Of a stretch of DNA of 64,000 bases, positions 358 to 62,956 are shown piece by piece. Under the pieces are notes generated by a model, which saw only the letters and a program-made list of their open reading frames with translations, ran no database searches and had not been told where the DNA came from. The translations under genes and the position numbers were made by a program. Each line of letters opens with the position of its first letter. The stretch's first letter is position 1. Location of the stretch: the IMG/VR virus record IMGVR_UViG_3300045988_171772, positions 1-64,000 of that record. One strand, 5' to 3'. Origin of the DNA: a virus.

Positions 358-449
358 GGATACTTTCTCCTCTCTGGTCTTTCTAAAAAACGACATTAAA
401 GAGACTTACTTAAGCGACTGTTTTTGATGTAAGGATACCCAAAACTTCC

Positions 450-1178
450 TCAGGGGATATCAGTCGTCTCAGACCCCCATCCTTTGTCAATGGTAATATC
501 GCCAAGAGACTGCTTCCATGTACCATCACCAGCCAAGAAGTATTCTTCCTGACCAGCAACAGGTTTGGGAACAAGGCCGTTGGTACCATCAGAGTCAGCA
601 GAAGCTCCGATGAAATCTGTGTATACATTATCACCATCAGCAACACCGAGATCAATAAGATCCTTCTTAGTAACCAAGGTTGCAGAAGATACATGACCGG
701 TAGCATCTACAGCGATTTTGTAAAGTCCAGAGGCAGCTGTGGTATAAGAAGGATGGACATAGTTATTGGCACCAGTGGCAATCCCATCCAGTTTGATTTT
801 ATCCTCAGGGGTCATCAAACCAGCAGCATCTTCCGAGACATTGGAGTATGCAGGGATTGTCTTCCAGGTACCATCTGCATTGAGGAATTTTCCAGAATCG
901 GTTGTCATGGGAGCGGGTACAAGACCAGCTGCGCCATTCTCGGAATCGGTTGCTCCTTTGACAAGAGCACGAAGATTCACCAACTTGGATCCAGTGTAGA
1001 GATAAAATCCCTCGTCTTCTTTGATGAAAGATGTCAAACCTTCCGGATTGGCACCACCATCAAGAATCGTTTGAAGTTCTTGAATTGTATCGTTGCACTC
1101 TCGCATATCAAGAAGAGATTTTGCATTCAAGATAAAGCCAGATGCAAGAGCAATTCCTTGCCGTTGATCCAGATTCAT
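450..1178 (-). CDS. tail fibre-like protein
   Basis: 242-aa ORF with a GGAGG RBS. Repeated GLVP.P....(K/Y)FL..DGTWK motif typical of phage fibres. Confidence 0.6.
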   Translation of the reverse strand: MNLDQRQGIALASGFILNAKSLLDMRECNDTIQELQTILDGGANPEGLTSFIKEDEGFYLYTGSKLVNLRALVKGATDSENGAAGLVPAPMTTDSGKFLNADGTWKTIPAYSNVSEDAAGLMTPEDKIKLDGIATGANNYVHPSYTTAASGLYKIAVDATGHVSSATLVTKKDLIDLGVADGDNVYTDFIGASADSDGTNGLVPKPVAGQEEYFLAGDGTWKQSLGDITIDKGWGSETTDIP

Positions 1179-1198
1179 GATTTAAATCCTCCCTCCTC

Positions 1199-2464: not shown

Positions 2465-2484
2465 GTTGTATCATCTCCTTGCCA

Positions 2485-3228
2485 TTATTCTAACCACATA
2501 TCCGAGATGTCCATATAGGCAAAGCCATCCAGATTGCTCTCTCCATCTCCCCATCCGAAAGACAGATAGGTGATGACGAGCTCATCATTCTTGGTATAGA
2601 CCTCTTCTCCATAGCGTGTGGCAAGAGCTACGGTATCTCCGTCAGCTTCATTAATGCGAACGACCACATACTCATCCCGTTCGGTGGTAACATTCTCCTC
2701 GATATTGGTCAAGAGGAATGCATCCAGTCCCATAAGAGACATACCGACATGAATATTGATATAGGCCTCATCCAATCCAGTGACATCGATGATACCCCTC
2801 TCATACCAGCAAGTCTTGCCGGAGCAATCCCAGGTACGATAGATGGTATCACCACTTTGATCTTCCAAGGTGATATAGACATATCGTCTCAGAAGCTTAG
2901 GCACAAATTCCAGATTTCTTCGAGTGAAGATGAATTTCAATTTGTGCCGATGATGGAACTTGATTGGTTTATTGGTTTTGAAGGATACCGAATAAATATC
3001 GAAATCCGATAGTCTGTGTTTGATATAGACACAGATGGATCCAAGAGCTCCTTTGTTTAAGATATCCTCATTCTCCGGAAGAAAATCTTCTTCCCGTAAG
3101 AAAGAAGTAGCAAAGACAAAGTCGACAGTGTCTCCATTATTCAGGGTCCAACCTCCTGTGAGGTTTTCGTAATCATCAATGGGCTGATGAAGGAGAATTC
3201 GATTTGTTCTCGTGGTAATGATAGGCAT
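2485..3228 (-). CDS. hypothetical protein (fibre-cluster associated)
   Basis: 247-aa ORF with an AAGGAGG RBS, first gene of the minus-strand fibre operon. Confidence 0.55.
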   Translation of the reverse strand: MPIITTRTNRILLHQPIDDYENLTGGWTLNNGDTVDFVFATSFLREEDFLPENEDILNKGALGSICVYIKHRLSDFDIYSVSFKTNKPIKFHHRHKLKFIFTRRNLEFVPKLLRRYVYITLEDQSGDTIYRTWDCSGKTCWYERGIIDVTGLDEAYINIHVGMSLMGLDAFLLTNIEENVTTERDEYVVVRINEADGDTVALATRYGEEVYTKNDELVITYLSFGWGDGESNLDGFAYMDISDMWLE

Positions 3229-32315: not shown

Positions 32316-32320
32316 AAATT

Positions 32321-32370
32321 AAACCGTAATGATGATAGTGACAAATACTACATCATTACGGTTTTTCTTC
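32321..32370 (+). terminator. intrinsic terminator
   Basis: AAACCGTAATGATG...CATCATTACGGTTT + TTCTTC. Confidence 0.8.
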
Positions 32371-32451
32371 CTATACATGGTTGATGATTCTAATATGACC
32401 GAAATTAATGGAGGATGCGGAGGGGCTATTCTTTTTGAATCAGTCTAACCA

Positions 32452-32503
32452 TAAGAAGAAATAAAACCCCGTAATGACGAAATAAAAACGTCATTACGGG
32501 GTT
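32452..32503 (-). terminator. intrinsic terminator
   Basis: AACCCCGTAATGACG...CGTCATTACGGGGTT, T-run on the minus strand. Confidence 0.8.
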
Positions 32504-32536
32504 ATTTAGGATTTAAATTGTGTCAGTCCCAAGTAA

Positions 32537-33244
32537 TCAGGACAGAACATCGTCGGCCTTCTTGTTCAGCTTCTGAGCCTGCTCACGCTTCTTCATGGCG
32601 ATGACACCCTTCTGGGCGGCCTTGTTCAGCATGGAGGTGCACTTGTTGATCAGCTTTCCAGTGGCCTTGGCTTCGTCGTTCAGGGTCTTCACGTCGGCGC
32701 TCTCAGGCTTGCGCAGAGCATTCTGCAGCTTGGTGTTGGTCTTGATGCCGATAGACAGAACGGCCTTGGTGATGCAAGCCAGCTGCTCAGCGTCGACCTT
32801 ACCATCGGCAGAAATGCCATTGAGTTCGAGGCCAGCCTGACGGGCCAGAGTGTTCAGTTCATCAGCATTGTCGATGGTGATAGTGTTGTCACGGATGGCT
32901 TTCGCCCTGTCGCTCAGCTCACCCTTCTTGTTCTTCTGGAAGTAGGTCTTGTCGATGGATTTCTGGGTGTTCTTGAAGATGATGCCACGGACCATGGCCT
33001 GGAAACGCATCAGCAGTCTCTTGAACTAATCGGCAACCTTCTTCATTTCATCGCACATCTTAGATGCCTTGGAGAAATATTTGTAAGCCTCACTGAATAC
33101 TCCAAGTTTGTATGCTTTGACTGCATACTTTGTCATTTTGCGCATCTCATAAACCCGAGGGTCTTTGATCAGCTTGGCTGTATCCATGTTGTATCCTTCT
33201 TCAACAGGATCCAGAAACTCAAGCACAGTATCAAAATTGTCCAT
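32537..33244 (-). CDS. helical paralog family member A1, contains an in-frame TAG (33026-33028)
   Basis: ORFs 33026..33244 and 32537..33010 share one frame, separated by TAG + 5 codons. ..KKVAD*FKRLLMRFQAMVRGIIFK aligns with ..KKIATWFKNLLIKFKAMIRKIVFK of A6. No RBS before the internal ATG. Confidence 0.7.
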
Positions 33245-33267
33245 ATTCTATATATCTCATTTGAAAT

Positions 33268-33300
33268 AGATCTATTCCTAATTATTAGGCAAATAGATCT
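33268..33300. promoter_or_regulatory. nested palindrome in a divergent promoter region (operator candidate)
   Basis: AGATCTATT-CCTAAT-T-ATTAGG-CA-AATAGATCT, between divergent paralogs A1 and A2. Confidence 0.4.
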
Positions 33301-33471
33301 CTGAACCATAAATGATCTGGGTCCCTTCTCACCCAGTAACAAAAAAGTAGGAATTTGAAACTGATTCATTTATGAATCAGAGAGAAAGCATTTTCTCCTC
33401 TATATATCTATTTGATTTATATATGTATCAAAAGAATTCATGTATTTTTCTTATAAAGGAGAATTCTCGTT

Positions 33472-34617
33472 ATGAATGAATTAGATATTGTATTGGAGTC
33501 TTATGAGACTACATCTGAGATTTATAGATCCGATATGGAGAATTCCATTGTATGCGAATCTCTGTGCCTTCCTGCTGAGGAAGGAGTTGTAGATGCAGTC
33601 AAGAAGACCGTTACGGCTATCTACGATAAATTCAAGAGATTGGTAGCAGCGTTTAAGAAGTGGGTTAAGAGCATTATTGCTCGTATCAAGGCTTTCTTTA
33701 GGAAAGGTAAGAAAAAAGATGAGCCTGCTTCTGATACTGATTCTTCAGATTCTAAATCTTCAGAACCTCCTTCTTCTGTGAAAGTAACACAGGAAGATGC
33801 AAAAGAAGATGTATCTAAGCTTCAGAATATTATCAAACAAGCGGATGCTGTGGAAACTAGTCTGAAGAAAGCTTCTACAGGTGAAGTTACTCCTGAAGAA
33901 GCAAAAGATCTGAATAAACAGGCGGATGATGCAGCTTCTGAAATGAAGGAAGCTAAAAAGACTATGGAAGTCAAATATCTAATTCTTCCTGCTAATTCTG
34001 AATCTGGGAATACAAAAGATACAGAAACCGATCAGTCTCTTGAAGAAAGGCATAATAATTACTTGAAAGCTCTTAACGATTCTAAAGATTCAAAGGATCC
34101 TACCAAGCCGACAGCGAGCGATTTTGCTGGTATGAATAAAGTCGTTAGCGAAATTGCCTCTAAAGATCCGTTTAAATTAGGAGATGCTGATTACAAAGAT
34201 CGTGGAGCGACTTGGCAGTTTATTTCCAGATGCGGGGAAATTGAAGCTGGAGGAAAGAAGTCTTTTGGATGGATTAATGCATCCGTGAGAGAACTCGTTA
34301 GACGTATATTGAGAGTTATGGATAGCGAGAATCCAAATTATAAGAGTGCGCAACTTATGCTGTCCTATATGCAATCCAGAATTCCATCCCAGCTTCAAAA
34401 GTATATCAATTCTAATAAGAATCAAGTTGCTAAACTTAAGAAAGGCCTGGCTAATTACCAGAAAAAGCCTCTTGATGTCGATAAATATAAAGAGTATGCT
34501 GGTTTTGCAAAAGCACAGGGCATCCAAGTGTATACCAAAGAAATTTTCGAGGGTGAACCTAATATGCAAAACCTGAAGAAATTCATTAAGGCTAAGGAGC
34601 AAACTAATCAATCTTAA
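33472..34617 (+). CDS. helical paralog family member A2
   Basis: AAAGGAG RBS. MNELDIVLE.. N-terminus and ..KKTVTAIYDKFKRLVAAFKKWVKSIIARIKAFFRK family helix. Confidence 0.7.
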   Translation: MNELDIVLESYETTSEIYRSDMENSIVCESLCLPAEEGVVDAVKKTVTAIYDKFKRLVAAFKKWVKSIIARIKAFFRKGKKKDEPASDTDSSDSKSSEPPSSVKVTQEDAKEDVSKLQNIIKQADAVETSLKKASTGEVTPEEAKDLNKQADDAASEMKEAKKTMEVKYLILPANSESGNTKDTETDQSLEERHNNYLKALNDSKDSKDPTKPTASDFAGMNKVVSEIASKDPFKLGDADYKDRGATWQFISRCGEIEAGGKKSFGWINASVRELVRRILRVMDSENPNYKSAQLMLSYMQSRIPSQLQKYINSNKNQVAKLKKGLANYQKKPLDVDKYKEYAGFAKAQGIQVYTKEIFEGEPNMQNLKKFIKAKEQTNQS

Positions 34618-34870: not shown

Positions 34871-34923
34871 AAATATACGCATATGAAACCTTCTATTTTG
34901 AAGATATTCATATGCGTATATTT
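34871..34923. terminator. bidirectional hairpin
   Basis: 17-bp stem AAATATACGCATATGAA/TTCATATGCGTATATTT between convergent genes. Confidence 0.7.
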
Positions 34924-35666
34924 CATTTCCCAGAAGATACTTTGGTTACCTTGGTAGCGTCACCATTCTTTTTATTCTCTTTATCGAGGGCCATCTTATT
35001 GGATTGCGCAGTATTGAGAATGGAGATGACTTCTTTAATAGCCTCGGTAGTCTTCTTCGCTCTGAATCGTAACCATCTGGGATAATCCTTTTCATCGAGT
35101 TTGTATTTCTCCATGAATTCTCTAGCCGGGTTGGACTTTCCAGAGATGATATTCACCAAAGCTTCATCAAGATACTGAGCATTCTTAAAGAGATTCTGAA
35201 GATAATGTGCGATCGACTGTACAGGAACTTTGCACATATCATCTTCCGCAAATCTCTCATCGGATTTCTCCGTGTAATAGTTATCATCGAATCCCTTAAG
35301 ATCCAGATTGTCAAAGACTTTCTCAAGTCTATCGACTTCTTCTGTGGAGATGAGAATGGTAACTCCATAGAGATCATTGATGAGCCTTCTTGATTTCTTC
35401 TGACGGTGCTTCCGAATAAAACTGCGGATGAATACTTCGAATTTGACCAATGCTGTATGGAAGGCCTGCTGAATCTTCTTAAAGGTCTTCTTGATCGTAT
35501 CCATAGCAGATTCAATCGCAATGGAGGTATCATATCCTTCGATAAGATACCCTACTTCTGTAAGCCTGTAATATGTCTCTTCTGCATTCTGGCATTCCAA
35601 CTCTTCATTTCTGGAAAGAGTGAATTCCAGAGCAGTATAGAGATCTTGAGCTTCTGAATAGAGCAT
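34923..35666 (-). CDS. helical paralog family member A3
   Basis: GAGGAGGG RBS. MLYSEAQDLY.., ..AIESAMDTIKKTFKKIQQAFHTALVKFEVFIRSFIRK. Confidence 0.7.
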   Translation of the reverse strand: MLYSEAQDLYTALEFTLSRNEELECQNAEETYYRLTEVGYLIEGYDTSIAIESAMDTIKKTFKKIQQAFHTALVKFEVFIRSFIRKHRQKKSRRLINDLYGVTILISTEEVDRLEKVFDNLDLKGFDDNYYTEKSDERFAEDDMCKVPVQSIAHYLQNLFKNAQYLDEALVNIISGKSNPAREFMEKYKLDEKDYPRWLRFRAKKTTEAIKEVISILNTAQSNKMALDKENKKNGDATKVTKVSSGK

Positions 35667-35792
35667 GATCTAATTCATACCCTCCTCTCTAGTATACTTG
35701 CTTACTTCAATGTCCGGATATATTCCTATGCATATGATAATAAACTCTACGATGGAACTATAACGATTCCATCGTAGAGTATGAAGCGAATC

Positions 35793-36512
35793 TTATTGAT
35801 CTTTCTTTTCTTCTGATTTACCTTTTGATTTCGCGTTCTTCTTCGCAGCTTTCTGGGCATCAACAGTCTGTTTCTGAATCGTAAGCACATAAATATTCAG
35901 GAAGTTGATGGTGAGGTTGATCGCTTTTGTACACTTATTGGCATCATCACGAAGCTTCTTTGTATCAACCTCGGGATCCGGATTATCCAGCCAATCTTCG
36001 AGATTTCCATCAATCTCGGATGCTTTTGTTGTGATATCACGAATGTTGCGCTTAATTTCAGGAAGCGTAAGGACATGACTGGCATTATAGTCAAATGCAT
36101 TCCCTTGCTTCTCAGTTTTCCAACTGTCTTTCAATTCGACAGTGTTAAAAGCATCTCTCAATTCATAGATTTTGCCGAGAAGAGCAGCAGGAACTTCCAG
36201 TCCGCGATTTCCAAGCAGAAGAATATCGGATGCGAGTTTCTTAGCCTGAGCACGATGCTGGAAGGTACGGACAATAAGCCCAAATTTGATGACCAACTTA
36301 TGGAATGCTTCCTTAACTTTCTTCATGACACTCTTGATAGTATCCAGGGCGCCTTCCATAGCAGAAGAATACTCAGAGTCATGATCGATCAGAGATTCCA
36401 TAGAAACAAGAAATGATACCTTCTGCTGAGCAGATTCGAGAGCTCTTTCTTCAGATTCCTCCAGAGAGAAATTCATACACGAAAAGAGTTCATTTGCTTC
36501 TACGAGGGTCAT
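35793..36512 (-). CDS. helical paralog family member A4
   Basis: MTLVEANELF.., ..AMEGALDTIKSVMKKVKEAFHKLVIKFGLIVRTF. Own terminator. Confidence 0.7.
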   Translation of the reverse strand: MTLVEANELFSCMNFSLEESEERALESAQQKVSFLVSMESLIDHDSEYSSAMEGALDTIKSVMKKVKEAFHKLVIKFGLIVRTFQHRAQAKKLASDILLLGNRGLEVPAALLGKIYELRDAFNTVELKDSWKTEKQGNAFDYNASHVLTLPEIKRNIRDITTKASEIDGNLEDWLDNPDPEVDTKKLRDDANKCTKAINLTINFLNIYVLTIQKQTVDAQKAAKKNAKSKGKSEEKKDQ

Positions 36513-36539
36513 GAGAAATATCCACCTTTCTTTTATGAA

Positions 36540-37202
36540 TTAGGCATGAGCCGGAAGAGCTTTGATGGTAGTGTCAACCTCTTTGTCTTTACTCTTCGAT
36601 TCAACAACCTCATCTTTGATCGCAGAGTTGATGAATTTGAGGCAAATACGAACAAGCTTCGCATAGCTATTTGCTTTCTTCTTCTCTTCCTTGAGCCAGA
36701 TGTTGATCTGCTGAGGATCTCTAATGATCTGGTCACCAGTAAATTCGGCTTTCAGTTCATTATTGATCTCATTCCCTTTCTGCAGAGCAGTCTTGCAGAT
36801 CTTAGCCAGATCCGTAGCAGTCAGCTTTTCTGGAAGCGATTCCATAGGAGTTTTGAGTTCAGAGAGAGCATCCTTCATGTTATCAAGTTCTTCTTTACTG
36901 ATTGTGATAGCAGTTTTACCAACGTCGCTCTCCAGTTTCTTCAGCTTCTTAGATGAGGCTTTGAAAGTAATGGAACGAATGACAGCCTGAAATCTTGAGA
37001 AGAGGTTCTTGAACCAGGTCGCCAGAGATTTTAAAGCTTCCATAGCAGTTCCATACGCTTCCGTAACAGCTTCATCATTATGATCAAGAAGTCCATCGAA
37101 AGGCATAACCATCATTGCTTCCTGTACAGATTTGTCTGAAAAGAAAGACTCTGCATTCATAGAAGCAAGAGCATAGAGTTCTTTTGCTTCAGTGTATTTC
37201 AT
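36540..37202 (-). CDS. helical paralog family member A5
   Basis: AAGGAG RBS. MKYTEAKELY.., ..AMEALKSLATWFKNLFSRFQAVIRSITFK. Confidence 0.7.
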   Translation of the reverse strand: MKYTEAKELYALASMNAESFFSDKSVQEAMMVMPFDGLLDHNDEAVTEAYGTAMEALKSLATWFKNLFSRFQAVIRSITFKASSKKLKKLESDVGKTAITISKEELDNMKDALSELKTPMESLPEKLTATDLAKICKTALQKGNEINNELKAEFTGDQIIRDPQQINIWLKEEKKKANSYAKLVRICLKFINSAIKDEVVESKSKDKEVDTTIKALPAHA

Positions 37203-37306
37203 GATACATATCTCCTTATTAAATAAGCATAAAATGTACTACTAGGTACAGAATCGCATCGTACCTAGTAGTACCTATTTTAAGCAAATTGTTGATTTGC
37301 TAAATC

Positions 37307-38065
37307 TTACTTGACAGGGTTGCCGTTCTTGTCAATGACTTCGACTTCAACAGACTCAGCCTTATCGGCAGCCTTGGCATCGCTGTTCTGAACAACGCCG
37401 GCCTTGACAGCCTTGTTCAGCAGAGAGGTGGCGATCTTCATGGCGCGAGCAACCAGCTTGCAGTTCTCATTCAGATCCTTCACCGAGACATCGGCAGAAG
37501 GGTTCTTCATGGCGTCAGCCAGCTTCTTCTCGCACTCGTCGCCACGGCTGGCAATCATCTTGCACAGGTTGGCCAGAGTCATAGCGTTCATGTTGGCACC
37601 AATGAAACCAGCCTTGATGCCCTTCTCATCCAGAGCCTTGAAGACTTCGTTGTAGCTCTCGACCTCTTCATCGGTCAGATCAACAACGCCCTTGGCAGGA
37701 GCAGCAGATCCAGCAGCCTTGGCATTCTTGGACATCTTGGCAACAGCCTTGTCAGCAGCCTTCACACGAGCCTTGAAGACGATCTTACGGATCATGGCCT
37801 TGAACTTGATCAGCAGGTTCTTGAACCAAGTAGCGATCTTCTTCAGAGTCTCGGTGACAGCATTGGCAGCCTCAGTGGCGATTTCGATATTCTCACTGCG
37901 CAGCTCATCGACATCATCGACGAAAGCGCCCAGAGTGGACTCGAAAGCCATCTGATTGCGGAAGGACTCCTCAGCAGCAATCGCACGCTTGAAAGAATCC
38001 GCATAGGCAACGTCAGGCTCGAAATCCAGGAGACGAGCGTACTCCATCGCTTCAGCGTATTTCAT
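37307..38065 (-). CDS. helical paralog family member A6 (GC3-rich)
   Basis: AAGGAG RBS. MKYAEAMEYA.., ..TLKKIATWFKNLLIKFKAMIRKIVFK. Visibly G/C-ending codons. Confidence 0.75.
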   Translation of the reverse strand: MKYAEAMEYARLLDFEPDVAYADSFKRAIAAEESFRNQMAFESTLGAFVDDVDELRSENIEIATEAANAVTETLKKIATWFKNLLIKFKAMIRKIVFKARVKAADKAVAKMSKNAKAAGSAAPAKGVVDLTDEEVESYNEVFKALDEKGIKAGFIGANMNAMTLANLCKMIASRGDECEKKLADAMKNPSADVSVKDLNENCKLVARAMKIATSLLNKAVKAGVVQNSDAKAADKAESVEVEVIDKNGNPVK

Positions 38066-38108: not shown

Positions 38109-38978
38109 TTAGAACTTCAGAGTGCCATCGGCATTCAGAAGATCGGAACTCTCAGAGACAGACTCCTCAGCAACCTCGAAATCGAAGTCGTCGTTCATCA
38201 TGCTCTCGCAGGAATCCGCATACTCGTTCAGCTCATCCTCAGAGAAAGTGACAGACTCCTTGCAGGACTCTTCCTCAGAATCTTCCTCATCGTCGTCATC
38301 TTCATCGTCAGACTCGTCTTCGTCCTCATCCTCTTCGTCTTCATCAGACTCATCGGAATCGTCGTCTTCCTCGTCCTTGTCCTTCTTGCACTCCTCGTCA
38401 TCAGGATCGCACTCTTCATCCTCAGACTCGGTAACCTTGCACTTCTTCTTCTTAGGAGCACAGACTTCCTCGGCATCGGACAGTTCGGCATCCAGAGACT
38501 CCAGAATAGCTCTCAGCTCAGGATCTTCGATATCCTCATAGCTCTCCTTCGCAGCAGAAGCCTTAGCCAGCTCCTTCTTGCGATCGTTCAGCAGCTTCTT
38601 CAGACCAGACAGATACTTCTGGAAGGCCTGAATCTCATCAGAAGTGACACCGGCCTTGCTCTCAACCACATTGCCGAGCTTGGCATACAGAGTCTTGATC
38701 GGAGACGCGATTGACTTGCTGGCATCTTTGATGGCGGCTTTGAATTCCTTGTCGTCCATAGAACCAGCAGCACGCTTCTTAGCGGCATCGGCCATGGTCT
38801 TCAGGGTTGTATTCACAGCTTTACCAGACTCATTGACAGCCTGCAGTTTAGCATCAACGTCTTCGACGGTCTTCAGACGAGAAACTTTCTTCTGAGCGGT
38901 AGCCAGGAGATCCTCAACAGTCTTCTTCTTGGTGAAGAGACCTTCCTGAGCAACCTGATTGTAGCTTGCTACATTCAT
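38109..38978 (-). CDS. Lys/Ala-rich helical protein with a poly-acidic C-terminal tail (GC3-rich; family membership uncertain)
   Basis: GGAGG RBS. C-terminus ..DEEDDDSDESDEDEEDEDEDESDDEDDDDEEDSEEE. Confidence 0.7.
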   Translation of the reverse strand: MNVASYNQVAQEGLFTKKKTVEDLLATAQKKVSRLKTVEDVDAKLQAVNESGKAVNTTLKTMADAAKKRAAGSMDDKEFKAAIKDASKSIASPIKTLYAKLGNVVESKAGVTSDEIQAFQKYLSGLKKLLNDRKKELAKASAAKESYEDIEDPELRAILESLDAELSDAEEVCAPKKKKCKVTESEDEECDPDDEECKKDKDEEDDDSDESDEDEEDEDEDESDDEDDDDEEDSEEESCKESVTFSEDELNEYADSCESMMNDDFDFEVAEESVSESSDLLNADGTLKF

Positions 38979-42761: not shown

Positions 42762-42811
42762 TGACAAAGAAGAGGATCGATTCGTTGCAATTTACACGGA
42801 GGAGAATGAAG

Positions 42812-43246
42812 ATGAATGATAAAGTGATTCACTTACAAGCGAGAATGTTTCATAGGAATAATACGTGCGCTCCTCCTTTGAAGGAGAGATTCTTGAAAAT
42901 GAGAGAGCCTTCTAAGAAGGAAGATACTCCCAAGAAAATCTTTCTCAACATTGATGGATATCGTCTGATCAATGTGGATGATATCTCCTAGGTCGGCATC
43001 GAGAAAGTAACAGCACTGGAATCCTGCAAAGATCTTGCAAAAATCACGGATCCCAATGAGAAGATTAGAGCGAAGATTGTGTATACAGTAAAGATCCGAT
43101 CTTCTAGCGGGTTCATTATCTGGTCTTCGGATATTGGTGACAAAGTAGAGATTACACATCTCTATTATAGGATTCATGAGATTCTTAAGAACTATGGAAT
43201 CTCTATCAATTACGTAGAGTTTGAACCCTCTGAGTTCAGACTGTAA
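42812..43246 (+). CDS. hypothetical protein containing an in-frame TAG (42989-42991)
   Basis: ATG after GGAGGAG. After TAG the same frame stays open for 84 codons with no ATG. ..IFLNIDGYRLINVDDIS*VGIEKV weakly parallels ..TFLDIRNRLTLNVNEILTIVIVKE of the next gene. Confidence 0.5.
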
Positions 43247-43599: not shown

Positions 43600-44076
43600 T
43601 TAACTTACTCTTTTCCACATACAGCATACCAAATAGGGAGGTATGTTGTTATGTGCTTTGCCTCCACCGGTATAAGCTGTTGTTCCAACACTACCCTTCG
43701 GAGTCCCATCCCACAGTTTATACCAACTATCATATTTATTGTCAAAATCTTGTAGAAATCCGGCAGTTGTTTCAGAACCAGTCGAATCTAAAACCAAAGC
43801 AGATCCTCCCTTGCTAGGGTTATTATGTTGATGACTGGGAATGGTATTCACAGTCAGAGTTACTTTTTCTTCACCACCAGTAGTATTCACCTTGTAGCTA
43901 TTGGAATTACTCAATAGAAATACTCCATTGATCTGTGTCCAACTACCACCAAAAAGACTAGCAGGTGATGTGGTATTCATACTCTGGTAGATAGCTCCTA
44001 CAGGATAGAAGGATAACTTTGTCAATGCGGTATTGTCATCAAAGTATACACAGGAAGATCTTGTAGTGGATACCAC
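43600..44076 (-). CDS. tail-collar-domain fibre protein (copy A; canonical start lost)
   Basis: FYPVGAIYQS...SLFGGSW...IPSHQHNN...GGGKAHNNIPPY. The frame is open up to 44124 (SIATYKRKLKDRSGNYVV..), but the ATG of copy B is replaced by TGG TGA. Only GTG 44076 remains. Confidence 0.55.
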   Translation of the reverse strand: MVSTTRSSCVYFDDNTALTKLSFYPVGAIYQSMNTTSPASLFGGSWTQINGVFLLSNSNSYKVNTTGGEEKVTLTVNTIPSHQHNNPSKGGSALVLDSTGSETTAGFLQDFDNKYDSWYKLWDGTPKGSVGTTAYTGGGKAHNNIPPYLVCCMWKRVS

Positions 44077-45785: not shown

Positions 45786-45816
45786 GAATCTCTATCTCCT
45801 CTTGTGGAGGGAAAAA

Positions 45817-45867
45817 GAATGGATACCCGAGAGACATAAAGTATCTCAAAGGTATCCATTCTTTTTT
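45817..45867 (+). terminator. intrinsic terminator
   Basis: GAATGGATACC...GGTATCCATTC + TTTTTT. Confidence 0.8.
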
Positions 45868-46183
45868 GTAAATTAGTATATACTATATAGATGACTACCA
45901 GTAAGGAGGTATACTTATGTCCTACGAAGAAATTGCTGTCCGTTGCTTTCTCATCAAGTCGAAGAATGTATCTCCGATACATCCTGTCATATTTTCGGAT
46001 TCCTCTATATCTTACATATAGGGAATTCTTCCAATGTATTCATCAATAAGCAGATTCTGTGATATAGGAGGAATTTTTAGATGGTTCAGTGGAATAATTA
46101 TTTCTTTAATGAGAGTCATGTGAGCTTGTATTTACGTATGTCATTCTTCTGAGAAAGATGAGAATGGAAATGCTCTATTTGAA

Positions 46184-46372
46184 GTGACTGTTAAATTATC
46201 TGGGAACGATAATCTAGTCATCACAAAACCAATCTCCTATGAGAAAGCACTCGCGATAGCAAAAGATATCTCGCTCATGATTGACAAGGCGAGTCATCCA
46301 GAGATGTACTCCTATGATGGAGTACCAAGAATCTTTAAGCAACATCCTATGTGGCAATCTAATGAATATTGA
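46184..46372 (+). CDS. hypothetical small protein (GTG start; uncertain)
   Basis: 62 codons. Same frame as the upstream ORF 45917.. , which is interrupted by TAG and TGA. Confidence 0.3.
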   Translation: MTVKLSGNDNLVITKPISYEKALAIAKDISLMIDKASHPEMYSYDGVPRIFKQHPMWQSNEY

Positions 46373-46377
46373 TTCCT

Positions 46378-46506
46378 CTTTTTGTATATTTACCCCAATT
46401 TCTCTATCGAATTACTCATATTATCATTTTCAAAATGTCAAATATATGCGACATTCTGTAAAACATACCAGACAAAATGTAAAACGAGATATGAGATTTT
46501 CAAAAT
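46378..46506 (+). repeat. ~130-nt non-coding repeat, copy 2
   Basis: Same orientation as copy 1, a handful of substitutions or indels. Followed by the 19-bp-stem hairpin at 46545-46607. Confidence 0.85.
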
Positions 46507-46544
46507 TCTGGAAAATGGTATTTACTCTAAAAATTGGAGAAGAA

Positions 46545-46607
46545 TTACTACCCACTATAGAAGAGATACTCATATAGAGATTCTTCTATAGTGGGTAGTA
46601 ATTTATT
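46545..46607 (+). terminator. strong hairpin + T-rich tail after repeat copy 2
   Basis: 19-bp stem TTACTACCCACTATAGAAG/CTTCTATAGTGGGTAGTAA + TTTATT. Confidence 0.6.
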
Positions 46608-46629
46608 AATATAGATATAGAATAGAGGG
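46599..46629. repeat. 31-bp perfect inverted repeat, right arm
   Basis: TAATTTATTAATATAGATATAGAATAGAGGG. Upstream of fibre copy B. Confidence 0.85.
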
Positions 46630-46722
46630 AGAATACGATACTAGGTAGGGTATTAGAGATACTAGGGATATCTCTCTATCCTATCATTAGAGGAGTATCG
46701 TATTCTTATATAGACCATTGGG

Positions 46723-47227
46723 ATGATCTATATCGCTACTTATATTAGGAAATTGAAAGATCGTAGTGGGAATTATGTAGTACCTGATACTAGAGCATCT
46801 TGTGTCTACTTTGATGACAACACCTCTCTGTCTAAGTTGACCTTCTATCCAGTAGGGTCTATCTATCAGAGTGTCAATGAGACTTCACCTGCTTCTCTTT
46901 GGTGGAGATTGGGAGAGACAGTATGACAGATTTCTCATTGGTGGAGGTAAGACATATAAGATGGGAGAAAAGGATAGCTCCGCTACTGTATATATTGCTA
47001 CAGAAAACCTTCCTAATCATACACATATGATCGGTGACCCTGAGTGGAGACTGATGATCGGGGATGAACCTACTCTACCAAACAAAATCTGGGTTGATGC
47101 TGGATATGATCAAACTTCAGATAGATCCATTCCATTATATTATGAATGGAGAGATCAGTATACCTCTGGAGTAGGTGGTGGGGTCCATCATAATAATATA
47201 CCTCCGTATAGAGCTATTGCTATGTGA
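46723..47227 (+). pseudogene. tail-collar-domain fibre protein (copy B), frameshifted at about 46898-46902
   Basis: ORFs 46723..46926 and 46871..47227 together match copy A. SPASL|FGGDW needs 2 extra T in the T-run (T3 here, T5 in copy A). Ends HHNNIPPY. Confidence 0.6.
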
Positions 47228-47341
47228 ATTCGTAATGCATAATTCCTAAATATTCACTCTATGATTTCATAAAACTAATGAAGTCATAGAGTGACTTTAT
47301 TCTATCCTATACCTTATATACTGGAAAGGAGTATATAGAAA

Positions 47342-47788
47342 ATGAATATCGTCTTTGATAATGATAGCAACCCTAATGAAATCTATTCTATCTCAATTTA
47401 TGCTAATGATCCAGAGATCTATTATATCGATGATGCTAGATTCTATAGAATGGGATATAATACCCTCATTGGTTCTATGAATTTTCGTATAGATATAGAG
47501 AAAGCCATTGAGAAATTCAAGAAACCTGAGACATCTCCCTTTATCAACTATGCGTTTCATACAGAGAGACATCCCGAATATGCCCTCATTCCTATGATGT
47601 TTACCGCTATTCCCAATAATCCAGATGTACCTCCTTTATTCGGTATTACGTACAACGATGGAAGTATCTCTTTGGATCTAGCAAATGTATTATCTATGAT
47701 ACATACATCAGAGGATATTGAGAGATACAAAGAGGGATACTCCTCTGTCAGACTCCATTTCTCTACATTCTATCGTAAGATGGAATAA
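47342..47788 (+). CDS. hypothetical protein (downstream of the fibre gene; assembly-factor guess)
   Basis: GAAAGGAG RBS, 148 aa. Confidence 0.55.
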   Translation: MNIVFDNDSNPNEIYSISIYANDPEIYYIDDARFYRMGYNTLIGSMNFRIDIEKAIEKFKKPETSPFINYAFHTERHPEYALIPMMFTAIPNNPDVPPLFGITYNDGSISLDLANVLSMIHTSEDIERYKEGYSSVRLHFSTFYRKME

Positions 47789-47897
47789 AAGAATCATCTT
47801 AGATTCTAAAAATGATCGACTATAATAGTTTACTATTATAGAATACTATAAGAAGACACGAGGGGATAAGTAGATATCATATGGAGGTATACTACTT

Positions 47898-48164
47898 ATG
47901 CCTGATAAGCTTTTATCTCCTGAATATGGACTTAGCAATTCTAAACTGGAAGAATGTAATACTTCTCCTTCTGATGTAAGAAGTGGAAAGACATTCTATA
48001 GTGGAGATACTTCAGATAGATCTCCACAGAAAGGATATGTAAACTCGACTCTTGTGAGATATTATAACTCAAGCGTGAAAGCATTTACTGCCATGCCTGA
48101 ATATATAAATGTGAATTGCTGGCAAAGGTGTCCTAAATTCAATTCCAATAAGAAACTAGATTGA
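47898..48164 (+). CDS. short fibre-like fragment
   Basis: GGAGG RBS. ..SPSDVRSGKTFYSGD.. motif common in Firmicutes phage fibres. Only 88 aa. Terminator follows. Confidence 0.4.
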   Translation: MPDKLLSPEYGLSNSKLEECNTSPSDVRSGKTFYSGDTSDRSPQKGYVNSTLVRYYNSSVKAFTAMPEYINVNCWQRCPKFNSNKKLD

Positions 48165-48854
48165 TAAGAGATATCTTAGGATGCTAGAGGGTTTTCCTTG
48201 TCGTTTTCCCTTCTAGTAGTCTGACTGAGGGTATTTCTTTACTCCTTTCTTTCCATATGAGAGATATCATTACTTCTTGCCCCCACTTCCCTTGCTAAGA
48301 AGAATCATCTCTCATATGGATCTTTTTGTATAAAAAAGAAGGGATAAGGAATTTCCCCAATAATAAATAAACTCCTTATCCCGGTAAGTGCGAATATACT
48401 ATAGAGTAAAAGGTTGAGTATTATGCGCTATATGGTTCCGTAAGTTTCCTAAAGCCAATATGTCTCTCACGAAGATATCTGACCATAGGATTTCTCTTAC
48501 ACATGCCATACAGAAGATACTCCTGCTTAGTATTGACAAGATATTCATGATCCTTGGAATTCGGGTCATATTGATTGGTGAAATGTCAAAGAGCGTAGTC
48601 TTCAGAATTTTCCAATCTTTCTTTTTGGATATCTAATGTCTGAATGTAGTCAAGTACATCCTTTATTTCAAGCAGTGGGTTCTGCATAAGTATCATACCT
48701 TTAGTCCCATATGGAATGTCCCCTAAGACTTCCATATGGGATTTTCTATAAGAATCTATCCTCACTTACCTATATAATATACAGAGATTTCTGAGATTCA
48801 ATAAACCCAGATAGATACTTATCTTCATTCTTAGTATCTATCTGGGTTTATCTC

Positions 48855-49010
48855 TTATTTCTCTTTATCTTTCAATCTCTCAATGTTCCATACATGAGTA
48901 TGGGCGATCTTTACCAGGATTTCATATGCTTTTCTTTTATTGGGAGCGTCACATTCCACAATGGAGATGTCGCCATTCTTTTTCGTCACATACCCAATAT
49001 AATGTCGCAT
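48855..49010 (-). CDS. hypothetical small protein
   Basis: 51 codons. ATG 9 nt after GGAGGA. Hairpin terminator downstream. Confidence 0.3.
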   Translation of the reverse strand: MRHYIGYVTKKNGDISIVECDAPNKRKAYEILVKIAHTHVWNIERLKDKEK

Positions 49011-49118
49011 AGGAAGAATCCTCCATTTCTATATGAGAGTAAAGATTTTTACCTCTCTGTATAAAAAAGAAAGGTAGGTATCTAGCTTTGATATACTAGA
49101 TACCTACCTTCTTAAGAC

Positions 49119-60658: not shown

Positions 60659-61171
60659 TTACTCCTCTGCTTCCGTGTTGAGTTCTTCGGAAGGAATCTC
60701 CTCATCTTCCGAAGCTTCTTCTCCATGCACCTTCTTCTCAATCTCTTTGGAGACTTTCTTCATACGATTCTCCATCGCATTCTTCCAATCGGTGGAGGTA
60801 TCCTCCTTTTCTACGATTTTGATCTCGGCATACTTCAATCCATCAAACTGGACCGAAGAGTCATACTCATTGATGAATTTGAGATAGTCCTCCAGACTGT
60901 CAAAGGAGATCTCAACGGGGAATCCTTTGGCTTGACAGGTATCACTGTTATAGTATTCAGCAATCTCCTGGTGAATGTGGTATCCGGCATCACAAGGTTC
61001 CGGATTCGGATTGAAATAGAAGTTATCGAAGAGCTCCATGAAGGGAGTGAATGCACCACTCATACCGACATCGGAGTTGGAAGAGACATTCAGGTCGATC
61101 TTCCCAAGATAGGAGGGATGGATATTACGATATTTCTGGGAAATGATTTTAGAGCTCTGCTCACCTAGAGA
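60659..61171 (-). CDS. RNA polymerase beta-like subunit (N-terminal-half type), exon 2
   Basis: Starts SLGEQSSKIISQKYRNIHPSYLGKIDL..SDVGMSGAF (compare beta RDVHPSHYGR.CP.ETPEG.N.GL). In frame with exon 1 after intron removal. Confidence 0.75.
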   Translation of the reverse strand, partial: SLGEQSSKIISQKYRNIHPSYLGKIDLNVSSNSDVGMSGAFTPFMELFDNFYFNPNPEPCDAGYHIHQEIAEYYNSDTCQAKGFPVEISFDSLEDYLKFINEYDSSVQFDGLKYAEIKIVEKEDTSTDWKNAMENRMKKVSKEIEKKVHGEEASEDEEIPSEELNTEAEE

Positions 61172-61579
61172 CGACTTATAGGTTTCACTATAAGACTGAC
61201 TATATCTTACCCGAGATAAGGAGTTCTTTCTTATCTCGAATCTCTCCCGCTTTGATTGAATGGAATTACGATAGACTACTGTCATCTATCTACCAACTAA
61301 GAGAAGTCTCTTAGCTCTACTCTACTCAGTTCTACCTGAGGTATTCCTACCTAAGTTACCCTTTCGATAGTCGATGAACCTTATCCTACTTTCATAGGAT
61401 CTTGGCTGCGTGATTGGCCCTACTCTCGACCTTGTTACTATACCAACTGAAATAATGTCCTCTTTAGATCAAGTCCAGTTGCCATATAGGCAGTGATGTC
61501 TATATTTAGTAGTCGGGATTTGACAGGCTATCGTCCCCGCAATTCAAGAGAGTTTATACCGAACTCTTTCAGGTATCAA
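61172..61579 (-). ncRNA. group I self-splicing intron (no internal ORF)
   Basis: P AATTGCGGGG 61544-61535, Q AATCCCGAC 61520-61512, R GGTTCATCGACTATCG 61380-61365, S AAGATATAGTC 61208-61198. P1 ACCGAAU/GUUCGGU with U.G at the 5' splice site. P9 hairpin 61194-61175. Terminal G at 61172. Confidence 0.85.
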
Positions 61580-62956
61580 ATTCGGTCCTTTAGCAGAGAA
61601 ATAGAGATCTTGGAGCATGGTCATATCATTGACCAACTCATCGGATTTCACAAGGTCTCCAATGTTTCTCATGCCATTGATGATGATGTCCGAACCAAAG
61701 TTGAAGAGTTCCAGGAGGGTATCCATGGTATTCAACTTAGACTTGGACTTCTTCTCGATGAGCTTGTTGATATTCTCGTTGATCTTCTTTCCCAGAGAAG
61801 ACATAACGATGTATTCATTCTTCCGGATTCTCTTATTATCCAGATCCATATTATTCCGATTCTTGAGAGAATCAAAATCCAGGATCATCCATCTGAGAAT
61901 CGAGTAGATATTCTTCTTATAACAGTCAGGAAGACGGAGATTGACCTGGGTAATGGTATCCAAGAGTCTCTCGATCATATGCATGGTGGTTTTGCCCTTC
62001 TCTGCAAAGGTCTCGAGATTCTTAGAGTGAGCAGATCCAATGGAACCTACTCGACAGGTCCAATACATAGTATTCTCTACCGTCTCCATGGTCATAGGAA
62101 AGTCTGCAGACATGCAGGCCGCGATCATAGCGGTGAAGTTTCCTACAAACGGTACATTCTCCATGAGGTAACGATCTACCTGGAGAATGATCTCATTCAC
62201 CCCGAAATACCGATACCGCTCATGATCATACTGATCCGCATGATCATCAAAGAAGAGCTTATCGAAGGGGAGAATCTTGATGACATCCTGGAGGCCAAAG
62301 TAGGCAATGGTATTCTTCAATCCAATCTTCGCAGAGAAGATCATGACAGGATTGATGAATTTTACCTTGGCTGCTTTGGACTTGGATGCAAATCTCGTCT
62401 TCCGATTCAATGCATAGCTATAGGTAGAGAATTGCATGACCTCACCATTCATATCGATGAGAGGACGCTTCTTACTCTTATAGACGATGATCGGCATACG
62501 GGACTTCATCGTGATCTTACCCTTCTGACTATAGGTAGATGCATCCACCAGCTGCCAGAGAGCTTTCCACTTTTTGTTATTGAGGGTATAGAATCCATCA
62601 TACTCAATCGGAATCAGAATCTTCTTGACGATATTCCTCTCATTCTTATTCGTCTTGATGTTGACGTGGAACTGGATCTCACCCACTCGATTGGTAGCCA
62701 GATATTTGAATTTGGGAATGTCATAATTCCCAGACTTTCTTTTGTAGTTGATATTGACAGAGTGCTCATTCACATCCACTTTGTCAGGATCCACTACGAT
62801 GTCATACCCGGTGATGGTGATGTTTTCAATGGCTTCAAATTCTTTCATCGCCATCACAACCAGATCGGGAATGGGGATGTCATTCTCCGATCTCAGAAAA
62901 GGAAGATTGAGCTCCTTTTCCATAGGATTGGGAAATTGATAGATATAATTTAGCAT
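61580..62956 (-). CDS. RNA polymerase beta-like subunit, exon 1
   Basis: TAGGAGA RBS. Ends ..DLYFSAKGPN (compare beta ..SALGPGG). The ORF-track tail LIPERVRYKLS* lies inside the intron. Confidence 0.75.

What the first reader, a model, noticed from the sequence alone, without database searches (positions are those of the whole stretch)
32537..33244. In-frame TAG at a position where the closest paralogs have Trp, coinciding with a sharp compositional junction
ORFs 33026..33244 and 32537..33010 share one frame and are separated only by TAG (33026-33028) plus five sense codons. Together they give a 235-aa protein collinear with its neighbours. ..MKKVAD[TAG]FKRLLMRFQAMVRGIIFK aligns with ..LKKIATWFKNLLIKFKAMIRKIVFK (37307..38065) and ..LKSLATWFKNLFSRFQAVIRSITFK (36540..37202). 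TAG therefore sits where both have TGG. No RBS precedes the internal ATG at 33010. The 5' part is AT-rich with an M.NFD.V.E N-terminus like subtype B. Everything 3' of the TAG is strongly G/C-ending and resembles the C-terminus of 37307..38065, so the gene also looks like a recombinant mosaic. Possible explanations are a recoded or suppressed amber codon, a very recent TGG>TAG pseudogenisation, or a recombination scar.
Basis: seen in the sequence. Interest (0 to 1): 0.7.

Follow-up and report, generated by a model that had tools for sequence, protein, structure and literature searches.

The report
Amber-truncated hybrid gene in gut jumbo phage
The in-frame TAG is a real and widespread TGG-to-TAG nonsense mutation lying two codons after the crossover point of a recently formed hybrid gene in an uncultured gut jumbo phage, and because related strains have broken the same gene in several other ways it is ordinary gene decay, not a recoded stop codon.

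Summary
Observation confirmed. On the minus strand, 33244..33029 (72 codons), TAG (33028..33026) and 33025..32540 (162 codons) form one frame. GC3 jumps from 0.48 to 0.77 at the junction.

The gene is a proven chimera. Codons 1-70 and about 90 nt upstream come from a 183-186-aa 'MDNFD' gene. Codons 67-235 and the terminator come from a 240-aa paralogue-family gene. The two parents overlap in 12 nt (TGAAGAAGGTTG, 33045..33034).

All 13 full-length 240-aa alleles read, and three intact 235-aa chimeras in other metagenomes, have TGG at this codon. The TAG allele occurs on at least 33 contigs from many samples, so it is not an error.

Related strains carry other lesions in the same gene:
- GAG>TAG at codon 52
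- a +1 frameshift at codon 134
- CAG>TAG at codon 154
- a 39-nt deletion that removes the stop codon

None of the roughly 70 other genes in the window needs TAG as a sense codon. The one other in-frame TAG lies in a second decaying accessory gene. No tRNA was found in about 95 kb.

Verdict: a recent nonsense mutation in a young, dispensable hybrid gene. One oddity remains: TAG never terminates any of about 96 genes in this phage clade.

The parts
33029..33244 (-). 5' module of the chimera: 72 codons (MDNFDTVLEF...MKKVAD) derived from a 183-186-aa 'MDNFD' gene. In this allele it is the whole translated product.
   Evidence: It is 93% identical to the N-terminus of P0003 (183 aa), and P0004-P0006 are similar. 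DNA homology to L003/L004 covers CDS nt 1-211 at 97% and window 33334..33034. GC3 is 0.48.
33245..33334 (-). Upstream leader and promoter region inherited with the MDNFD-type 5' module. It has no strong Shine-Dalgarno.
   Evidence: L003 homology starts at window 33334 and L029/L030 homology at 33383/33355. The upstream sequence is listed.
33034..33045 (-). Crossover: the 12-nt microhomology TGAAGAAGGTTG shared by both parental genes (..M/L-K-K-V..).
   Evidence: MDNFD-type parents (L003, L004, L029, L030) align up to 33034. P0002-type parents (L005-L008, L029, L030) align from 33045.
33026..33028 (-). Amber codon TAG at codon 73, two codons 3' of the crossover. It is TGG (Trp) in the parents and in intact chimeras.
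   Evidence: Sequence. TGG is present in L001, L002, L019, L020 and L005-L008. W is present in P0001, P0002, P0016, P0017, P0022 and P0024-P0036. P0019 has CAG.
32540..33025 (-). 3' module: 162 codons derived from a 240-aa P0002-type member of the MxYxEA paralogue family. It is untranslated, or at most reinitiated, in this allele and carries further lesions in sister strains.
   Evidence: It is 96.6-97% identical in DNA to L005-L008 over CDS nt 200-708. GC3 is 0.77. Lesions in other TAG alleles: +C at codon 134 (L013, L018), CAG>TAG at codon 154 (L010), and a 39-nt deletion over the stop (L015, L016).
33008..33010 (-). Internal ATG (Met79), the start of the mechanical 157-aa ORF. It lies 15 nt after the TAG and is preceded only by AAGAGA.
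32537..32539 (-). TGA stop codon of the chimera, which is the native stop of the P0002-type parent.
32457..32503 (-). Intrinsic terminator inherited with the P0002-type 3' end: a 15-bp stem, a 9-nt loop and a U-run.
   Evidence: RNA fold of -25.2 kcal/mol, z = -7.3 against shuffles. The same sequence follows the 240-aa gene in L005-L008.
34923..38065 (-). Context: tandem array of four intact MxYxEA-family paralogues (252, 220, 239 and 247 aa), the family to which the chimera's 3' module belongs.
   Evidence: Alignments A1 and A3. None of them has an in-frame stop in the window.

Best explanation
The region holds a young hybrid gene that has been knocked out by an ordinary amber nonsense mutation.

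Origin. An illegitimate crossover at a 12-nt microhomology (TGAAGAAGGTTG) joined two pieces. The first is the promoter-proximal 70 codons of a 183-186-aa 'MDNFD' gene. The second is the last ~165 codons, stop codon and terminator of a 240-aa gene from the neighbouring MxYxEA paralogue family. In sister genomes the two parental genes lie about 830 nt apart on the same strand, so the crossover was an unequal exchange between genome copies or between co-infecting relatives. The result was a 235-aa chimera, which still exists intact in a few strains.

Mutation. In the lineage of this window a G>A transition then changed the only Trp codon (TGG, codon 73) to TAG. Translation therefore stops after 72 residues, that is, after the MDNFD-derived module. 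The gene is the last in its transcription unit, so there is no polar effect.

Fate of the 3' part. The G/C-ending 3' part is no longer protected by selection and is collecting further lesions in different strains.

Shown: the chimera, both parents, the junction, the ancestral TGG, the spread of the TAG allele and the additional lesions.

Inferred: that the TAG terminates translation efficiently in the host, and that the loss is neutral or favoured.
For: Parents and junction:
- P0003-P0006 (183-186 aa) share residues 1-70 and then diverge (..MKKVVDQAREPEK..).
- P0002 (240 aa) shares residues 67-235 (..WLKKVADWFKRLLMRFQ..).
- DNA homology of the two parent types ends at 33034 and begins at 33045 in every representative.
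- L029 and L030 carry both parents in one genome, in the order 240 aa, 166 aa(-), 186 aa.

Ancestral TGG:
- All 13 P0002-type alleles read have W.
- Intact 235-aa chimeras P0016, P0017 and P0022 (loci L019, L020) have TGG and keep parent-like states at most polymorphic sites.

Real and common:
- 72-aa products occur on at least 33 contigs.
- Ten loci from ten runs are 98.2-100% identical to the window across the chimera, and all carry the A at 33027.

Independent lesions in the same gene:
- GAG>TAG at codon 52, with TGG retained (L001, L002).
- +C in a CCC run at codon 134 (L013, L018; P0019 shows the same shifted peptide).
- CAG>TAG at codon 154 (L010).
- A 39-nt deletion across the stop (L015, L016).

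Derived replacements: the window clade has changes at residues invariant in functional alleles (K113R, I139L, R157C and then F).

No genome-wide recoding:
- ORF coverage gains no more from making TAG a sense codon than from doing the same with TGA or TAA.
- All paralogues and tail genes are uninterrupted.
- No tRNA was found in the window or in the loci scanned.

Decay is general in this region and not specific to TAG:
- A TAA nonsense in the 239-aa paralogue of L019.
- Gene 42806..43246 carries TAG, TGA or frameshifts depending on the strain.
- A frameshifted Gp10_C paralogue at 46714..47227.

'Always TAG' is expected here: 53 of the 78 possible single-step nonsense changes in this gene give TAG, and 10 of the 11 that are transitions do.
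Against: 1. TAG terminates none of about 96 called genes in this phage clade. This is what a TAG-suppressing system would look like.
2. Two of the polymorphisms are TAG/CAG exchanges: codon 73 in P0019 and codon 154 in L010. They would be synonymous under TAG=Gln.
3. Within the TAG clade the downstream N/S ratio (7 non-synonymous, 5 synonymous, 1 nonsense) is not clearly different from that of other fast-evolving intact neighbours, such as the 381-aa gene at 12:6. Relaxed constraint therefore rests on the disabling lesions, not on rates.
4. The stem of the TAG clade has 8 synonymous and 4 non-synonymous changes. This would suggest constraint if they post-date the TAG. However, L015 and L016 are demonstrably recombinant, so the order of events cannot be established.
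5. Only about 95 kb of a 255-273-kb genome could be scanned for a suppressor tRNA.
Confidence: 0.85

Rival explanations
1. Recoded or suppressed amber codon. The phage, or its host, reads UAG as an amino acid (most likely Gln, as in genetic code 15), at least late in infection. The full 235-aa chimera is then still made from the TAG allele.
For: TAG is not used as a terminator in about 96 genes of the clade, although the TAG trinucleotide is common in other frames. P0019 has CAG at codon 73, and L010 has CAG>TAG at codon 154. A second in-frame TAG (Tyr62) lies in window gene 42806..43246, with conserved sequence on both sides. Code-15 phages are established in the gut (PMC9523058, PMC10607447).
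Against: Only two in-frame TAGs occur among roughly 70 genes. Both are in genes that other strains disrupt by frameshift, TGA or deletion. Known recoded phages carry TAG in dozens of ORFs (41 in phAss-1, PMC10607447). ORF coverage shows no TAG-specific gain. Tail and baseplate genes (450..3228, 43600..44076) have none. No tRNA was found in the window or in the seven extra loci scanned. TAG replaces W, E and Y as well as Q. TAG alleles acquire a +1 frameshift that no recoding can rescue.
Confidence: 0.07
2. Adaptive truncation (a variant of the best explanation). The full-length hybrid protein is harmful, for example because it feeds a paralogue-family C-terminal domain into the wrong pathway or is sensed by a host defence. 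Stops at or before the junction were therefore selected, and the 72-aa MDNFD module is the functional product.
For: The two independent primary lesions (codon 52 in L001/L002, codon 73 in the TAG clade) both lie at or before the junction, and both prevent synthesis of the foreign part. The TAG clade is by far the most prevalent allele, with at least 33 contigs against 3 intact. Among nine TAG loci the 216-nt 5' module has no variable site, against 13 in the 489-nt 3' part.
Against: The numbers are small: at the local diversity of about 2 per 100 nt, P(0) is about 0.01-0.02. Eight single-residue variants of the 72-aa product exist elsewhere. The L001 type keeps only 51 residues. There is no functional information for either family.
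Confidence: 0.25
3. Split gene. Termination at TAG is followed by reinitiation at the ATG 15 nt downstream (33010), so two polypeptides (72 aa and 157 aa) replace the fusion.
For: The spacing is short (5 codons). An AAGAGA purine tract lies 7 nt before the ATG, and it is no weaker than the leader of the gene's own start.
Against: There is no consensus Shine-Dalgarno, in a phage where most genes have AAGGAG or GGAGG. Five of the eleven distinct TAG loci carry a further lesion inside the 157-aa ORF: a frameshift, a nonsense codon or a C-terminal deletion.
Confidence: 0.05
4. Sequencing or assembly error at 33027, or a minor intra-sample polymorphism.
For: None, beyond the fact that a single base is involved.
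Against: The same base is present in independent assemblies from at least ten runs and several projects, including loci 100% identical to the window (L012, L014). Eight amino-acid variants of the 72-aa product all end at the same codon.
Confidence: 0.01

Closest known systems
Mosaic phage genes made by illegitimate recombination at short microhomologies (the Hendrix/Hatfull model of phage mosaicism; from general knowledge)
   Same: There is a sharp junction between two unrelated or very distant sequence blocks. The two parents share only 12 nt at the crossover. Each parent is still found intact in related genomes.
   Different: Here the junction falls inside two coding sequences and preserves the frame, creating a fusion protein. 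The product can be followed in natural populations from intact to multiply disrupted.
Amber (nonsense) alleles and pseudogenes of dispensable phage accessory genes
   Same: A single-base change of a sense codon to TAG, with intact alleles in relatives, further independent lesions, and a position at the end of an operon.
   Different: The allele is the majority form in the sampled population. It sits two codons from a recombination junction, so exactly the foreign module is lost.
Genetic code 15 (TAG read as Gln) in gut phages such as crAss-like, Lak and phAss-1 (PMC9523058, PMC10607447)
   Same: It is a gut phage, it has in-frame TAGs opposite sense codons of relatives, TAG is not used as a terminator, and one relative has CAG at the same codon.
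   Different: There are no in-frame TAGs in the other roughly 70 genes, including tail genes. There is no TAG-specific gain in ORF coverage and no suppressor tRNA in about 95 kb. TAG replaces W, E and Y, and TAG alleles also carry frameshifts.
phiKZ-like internal head protein paralogue arrays (Pfam PF12699; phiKZ gp92-96; SPN3US paralogue family A, PMC5694885)
   Same: A tandem array of fast-evolving helical paralogues of variable copy number in a phiKZ/AR9-related jumbo phage. The array has a conserved A/V-x-E motif near residue 65, resembling the S/A/G-x-E prohead-protease site. PF12699 is the only Pfam family hit repeatedly, by 5 of 28 members.
   Different: All PF12699 hits are below threshold (at most about 20 bits against a cut-off of 27). 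The profile-profile comparison with phiKZ gp92-96 is negative (probability 0.3%). The proteins are about half the length. No fold match was found.

Membership tests
Stop-codon-recoded phage (code 15, TAG sense) | Many genes, especially late ones, need TAG read as sense to be full length | tested here: not met
   Only the chimera and gene 42806..43246 have an in-frame TAG flanked by conserved coding sequence. All other TAG-joined segments are antisense or lie upstream of real starts. Tail and baseplate genes are intact.
Stop-codon-recoded phage (code 15, TAG sense) | Coding density rises specifically when TAG is treated as sense | tested here: not met
   ORF coverage is 0.863 under code 11. It becomes 0.908 with TAG as sense, 0.904 with TGA as sense and 0.918 with TAA as sense.
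Stop-codon-recoded phage (code 15, TAG sense) | Phage-encoded suppressor tRNA (anticodon CUA) | tested here: inconclusive
   ARAGORN finds no tRNA at all in the 64-kb window or in seven loci that extend it by about 30 kb. About 160-180 kb of the genome could not be fetched.
Stop-codon-recoded phage (code 15, TAG sense) | TAG not used as a gene terminator | tested here: met
   0 TAG among about 96 called genes in L003, L009, L019, L021, L023 and L028. The exceptions are the chimera and two tiny antisense-looking ORFs. TAG-terminated ORFs in the window are wrong-strand calls.
Nonsense-mutated pseudogene | Orthologous alleles with a sense codon at the same position | tested here: met
   TGG in L001, L002, L019 and L020, and in all P0002-type parents.
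Nonsense-mutated pseudogene | Independent additional disabling lesions in the same gene | tested here: met
   An amber at codon 52, a +1 frameshift at codon 134, an amber at codon 154, and a 39-nt deletion over the stop.
Nonsense-mutated pseudogene | Relaxed selective constraint downstream of the stop (dN/dS near 1) | tested here: inconclusive
   Downstream changes are 7 non-synonymous, 5 synonymous and 1 nonsense on 376 non-synonymous and 110 synonymous sites, giving omega of about 0.5. This cannot be distinguished from 1 or from intact fast-evolving neighbours.
Recombinant (mosaic) gene | Both parental sequences identified, with a sharp breakpoint | tested here: met
   The MDNFD type aligns to CDS nt 1-211 and the P0002 type to nt 200-708. 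The window limits are the same (33034 and 33045) in L003, L005-L008, L029 and L030.
phiKZ_IP internal head proteins (PF12699) | Pfam match above the gathering threshold | tested here: not met
   Best E = 6.5e-4, at about 17-20 bits against a cut-off of 27. Five of 28 family members give sub-threshold hits. phiKZ gp92-96 score 32-253 bits.
phiKZ_IP internal head proteins (PF12699) | Profile-profile or fold similarity to bona fide members | tested here: not met
   hhalign of A4 against phiKZ gp92-96 gives probability 0.3% and E = 0.2. Foldseek best hits have TM 0.33-0.42 and E > 0.009, with nothing below 0.001.
phiKZ_IP internal head proteins (PF12699) | Packaged in the capsid and processed by the prohead protease | not testable with these tools
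   This needs virion proteomics. The only indication here is a conserved A/V-x-E motif.

The most novel reading that the evidence does not exclude
The phage clade may be at an early, 'codon-capture' stage of TAG reassignment, or may replicate in a host where UAG is leaky. TAG would have been purged from all terminators, and new in-frame TAGs (codons 52, 73 and 154 of the chimera, and Tyr62 of gene 42806..43246) would be partly read through. They would therefore be tolerated first in accessory genes, and the TAG/CAG exchanges at codons 73 and 154 would be effectively synonymous.
Probability: 0.07. Interest if true: 0.7.

Novelty: new member of a known kind. Interest (0 to 1): 0.25.

Why it matters
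As a candidate for stop-codon recoding it does not hold up, and that saves follow-up effort.

What remains is a well-resolved natural example of gene birth and death in a phage:
- an in-frame fusion created at a 12-nt microhomology between two neighbouring genes;
- both parents, the intact hybrid and at least five independent knock-out alleles all recoverable from public gut metagenomes;
- a tandem paralogue array in a prevalent, uncultured AR9/phiKZ-related gut jumbo phage that is a zone of rapid recombination and decay.

The complete avoidance of TAG as a terminator in this clade is a separate unexplained observation. It would be worth checking on the full genomes.

Tried and rejected
1. Close relatives in GenBank phages. 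There is no DNA match to the locus and no tblastn match for the family or for the 381-aa neighbour. The nearest cultured phages are Staphylococcus jumbo phages and AR9/PBS1, at about 30% identity on an RNA polymerase subunit.

2. Junction pattern scans of IMG/VR and JGI metagenome contigs found nothing. All relatives came from the ENA and Logan assemblies.

3. Function of the families:
- PHROGs gave no hit for the chimera halves or the paralogues.
- Pfam gave only sub-threshold hits.
- A PDB sequence-profile search was negative.
- An AlphaFold model of P0002 (pLDDT 80.6, all-helical) had no significant Foldseek match in BFVD or PDB.
- hhalign against phiKZ gp92-96 was negative.
The 'internal head protein' idea therefore stays a hypothesis.

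4. Rate-based test of relaxed selection. There are too few substitutions, and the neighbours also evolve fast. Polarising the stem changes was abandoned because L015 and L016 are recombinant.

5. Walking out of the window to find tRNAs. All long contigs that carry the left-end genes stop about 490 nt beyond gene 450..1178. One look-up failed. The two 10-kb extensions obtained have no tRNA.

6. The two TAG-terminated small ORFs in L023 look like antisense artefacts.

7. The sigma-70 promoter scan found nothing. The terminator scan missed the real hairpin because its loop is 9 nt. Folding confirmed the hairpin.

Full report
OBSERVATION

The minus strand of 32537..33244 reads as one frame:
- ATG at 33244;
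- 72 sense codons ending ..AAG GTT GCC GAT;
- TAG at 33028..33026;
- five sense codons (TTC AAG AGA CTG CTG);
- ATG at 33010;
- 156 further codons and TGA at 32539..32537.

Read through, this is a 235-codon gene. A 200-nt GC profile rises from 0.33-0.42 over the 5' part to 0.52-0.575 over the 3' part. GC3 is 0.48 against 0.77, while most genes of the window are near 0.45. MAFFT puts the TAG opposite Trp in the two closest paralogues (37307..38065 and 36540..37202). The more distant family members have A, A, K or Y there.

WHAT THE GENOME IS

The window encodes a divergent family-B DNA polymerase, a divergent DnaB, GroEL, SbcCD, Dda- and SNF2-type helicases and split multisubunit RNA-polymerase genes. 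The nearest cultured relatives are Staphylococcus jumbo phages and Bacillus phages AR9 and PBS1, at about 30% protein identity. Nothing similar at the DNA level is in GenBank phages.

Near-identical contigs of 255-273 kb occur in many human and animal gut metagenomes. Most genes have strong AAGGAG or GGAGG ribosome-binding sites. This points to a Firmicute-like host (inference).

THE GENE IS A CHIMERA, AND BOTH PARENTS ARE KNOWN

A search with the fused protein found two unrelated full-length families.
- Proteins of 183-186 aa (P0003-P0006) match residues 1-70 at 77-93% and then continue differently (..MKKVVDQAREPEKF..).
- Proteins of 240 aa (P0002, and P0024-P0036 in its cluster) belong to the MxYxEA paralogue family. 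They match residues 67-235 at 91-98% (..WLKKVADWFKRLLMRFQAMVRG..).

At the DNA level the MDNFD-type parents (L003, L004, L029, L030) align with the window down to 33034. The P0002-type parents (L005-L008, L029, L030) align from 33045 onward, through the stop codon and the terminator. The 12 nt shared by both, TGAAGAAGGTTG, are the crossover.

In the sister genomes L029 and L030 both parents lie on the same strand, about 830 nt apart, in the order 240-aa gene, 166-aa gene (opposite strand), 186-aa MDNFD gene. A simple deletion would give the opposite fusion. The observed MDNFD-5'::P0002-3' product is followed by the 166-aa gene in L001, L009, L017 and L019. This is what an unequal exchange between two genome copies or two co-infecting relatives gives (inference).

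The compositional step is thus a true recombination junction. The high GC3 is a property of this paralogue: 37307..38065 and 38109..38978 share it.

THE TAG IS A MUTATION OF TGG THAT AROSE AFTER THE FUSION

Every P0002-type allele read has Trp here. Three intact 235-aa chimeras exist (P0016, P0017, P0022). Two of them were fetched as loci L020 and L019. They have the same junction and TGG, and they keep parent-like states at most polymorphic sites. The TAG is therefore derived, and it is not the recombination scar.

It is also not an error. The exact 72-aa product is indexed in 42 blocks of the collection, and eight single-residue variants end at the same codon. Ten loci from ten sequencing runs all have the A, and two of them (L012, L014) are 100% identical to the window.

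THE SAME GENE IS BROKEN IN OTHER WAYS IN OTHER STRAINS

- L001 and L002 keep TGG but have GAG>TAG at codon 52.
- Within the TAG clade, L013 and L018 have an extra C in a CCC run at codon 134.
- L010 has CAG>TAG at codon 154.
- L015 and L016 have a 39-nt deletion across the stop codon.
- P0019 has CAG at codon 73 together with the shifted peptide expected from the codon-134 frameshift.

So five of the eleven distinct TAG loci carry a second lesion in the 3' part. The window clade also has replacements at residues that are invariant in 13 functional 240-aa alleles: K113R, I139L, and R157C followed by F.

Rate statistics are weak. Downstream of the TAG there are 7 non-synonymous, 5 synonymous and 1 nonsense change, for omega of about 0.5. 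This cannot be distinguished from neutrality or from intact fast-evolving neighbours. The 5' module shows no variable site in 216 nt, against 13 in 489 nt downstream. That is mildly suggestive that the 72-aa product is retained.

L015 and L016 are recombinants: they are nearly identical to the window down to about codon 85 and 3.3% divergent after it. The clade-specific substitutions therefore cannot be ordered relative to the TAG.

RECODING

Treating TAG as sense raises crude ORF coverage no more than doing the same with TGA or TAA. No other real gene of the window needs it, with one exception. Gene 42806..43246 has TAT>TAG at 42989..42991, while L030 has an intact 146-aa orthologue. That gene is also broken by a 48-nt deletion plus 1-nt insertion in L010, L013, L015 and L016, by CGA>TGA in L009, and by an extra A in L011.

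Other paralogues decay with other lesions:
- GAA>TAA in the 239-aa paralogue of L019;
- a frameshift in a Gp10_C paralogue at 46714..47227.

In the chimera, 53 of the 78 possible single-step nonsense changes give TAG, and 10 of the 11 that are transitions do. The predominance of TAG is therefore expected. No tRNA is present in the window or in seven loci that extend it by about 30 kb. Known code-15 phages carry TAG in dozens of ORFs (PMC10607447) and have proteomic support (PMC9523058). This phage does not look like them.

One point does not fit. TAG terminates none of about 96 called genes of the clade. The TAG-terminated ORFs in the window are wrong-strand calls. The trinucleotide itself is common. 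Together with the two TAG/CAG exchanges, this keeps a small probability (about 7%) that UAG is leaky in this system.

MECHANISM AND CONSEQUENCE

The gene has its own leader, inherited with the MDNFD module (homology from 33334). It is followed by a strong intrinsic terminator inherited with the P0002 module (32503..32457, -25.2 kcal/mol, z = -7.3). The stop therefore has no polar effect.

Translation most likely ends after Asp72, giving exactly the MDNFD-derived module. Reinitiation at Met79 cannot be excluded, since an AAGAGA tract lies 7 nt upstream. It is unlikely given the lack of a consensus Shine-Dalgarno and the downstream lesions.

Whether the loss is neutral or favoured is open. Both independent primary stops lie at or before the junction, and the TAG allele is the majority form. 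This would fit selection against the hybrid protein (inference, about 0.25).

WHAT THE FAMILY IS

The MxYxEA family is confined to this phage clade: 27 cluster representatives among 1.84 billion proteins. It forms tandem arrays of variable composition. It is predicted to be all-helical (pLDDT 80.6) and has a conserved A/V-x-E motif near residue 65.

PF12699 (phiKZ internal head proteins) is the only Pfam family hit repeatedly, but always below threshold. A profile-profile comparison with phiKZ gp92-96 and the fold searches are negative. Variable paralogue arrays of head or ejection proteins are typical of phiKZ-like phages (PMC5694885), so this is a reasonable but untested analogy. Membership is not supported.

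VERDICT

The mosaic reading and the 'recent TGG>TAG pseudogenisation' option are supported. Recoding is not supported, and an error is excluded. This is a new instance of known processes, namely illegitimate recombination followed by nonsense decay. It is documented unusually completely, and interest is low to moderate.

Noticed in passing
whole window and loci L003, L009, L019, L021, L023, L028: TAG is essentially never used as a gene terminator in this phage clade: 0 of about 96 called genes, against roughly 65% TAA and 30% TGA. The TAG trinucleotide is nevertheless common (1297 occurrences against 1533 for TAA on both strands). No tRNA was found in about 95 kb. This is unexplained.
   Followed up: partly
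window 42806..43246 (+), TAG at 42989..42991: A second in-frame amber codon: TAT (Tyr62) has become TAG in a small gene whose intact 146-aa orthologue is in L030 (4088..4528, minus strand). Other strains break the same gene by a 48-nt deletion plus 1-nt insertion (L010, L013, L015, L016), by CGA>TGA (L009), or by an extra A (L011). In L029 it is fused to the next gene (237 aa).
   Followed up: yes
window 46714..47227 (+): A paralogue of the Gp10_C-domain protein 43600..44076 is split between two reading frames near 46890. Joining frame 0 and frame 1 by hand gives a continuous 50%-identity alignment over 84 residues. It is either a frameshifted pseudogene or a programmed shift.
   Followed up: partly
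L019 6116..6835 (orthologue of window 35793..36512): In strain L019 the 239-aa array paralogue carries ATGGAA>ATTTAA, a TAA nonsense, which splits it into 38 and 188 aa. Array members are therefore knocked out with stops other than TAG too.
   Followed up: yes
window 60659..62956 (-); L023 10512..12809; L024 10512..12401: The RNA-polymerase-like genes of 470 aa and 208 aa are separate, with a 258-nt gap, in the window and in L023. In L024 they are replaced by a single 629-aa ORF. This suggests a strain-specific split, insertion or fusion.
   Followed up: no
window 1..500 and 45800..49100: All long contigs that carry the left-end genes stop about 490 nt beyond gene 450..1178, close to window position 1. 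A 265-kb contig starts near window 48200, inside a gene-poor stretch (45.8-49.1 kb). These may be genome termini or repeats that break assemblies.
   Followed up: no
window 32316..32536 against L009 10709..11382, L001 2113..2787, L019 10094..10839: The opposite-strand 166-aa gene that follows the chimera (and follows the parental 240-aa gene in L006, L029 and L030) is absent from the window lineage. This is a further deletion in the same hot spot.
   Followed up: partly
L028 6189..8372 (about 6-8 kb beyond the window's left end): The phage encodes a 727-aa protein with polyphosphate-kinase C-terminal domains (PF17941, PF13090).
   Followed up: no
window 33472..34617 (+): The 381-aa divergently transcribed gene next to the chimera is absent from L003, L029 and L030. 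It shows more non-synonymous than synonymous differences among near-identical strains (12 against 6). Its N-terminus (MNELDIVLE) and a KFKRLVAAFKKW segment resemble both parental families.
   Followed up: partly
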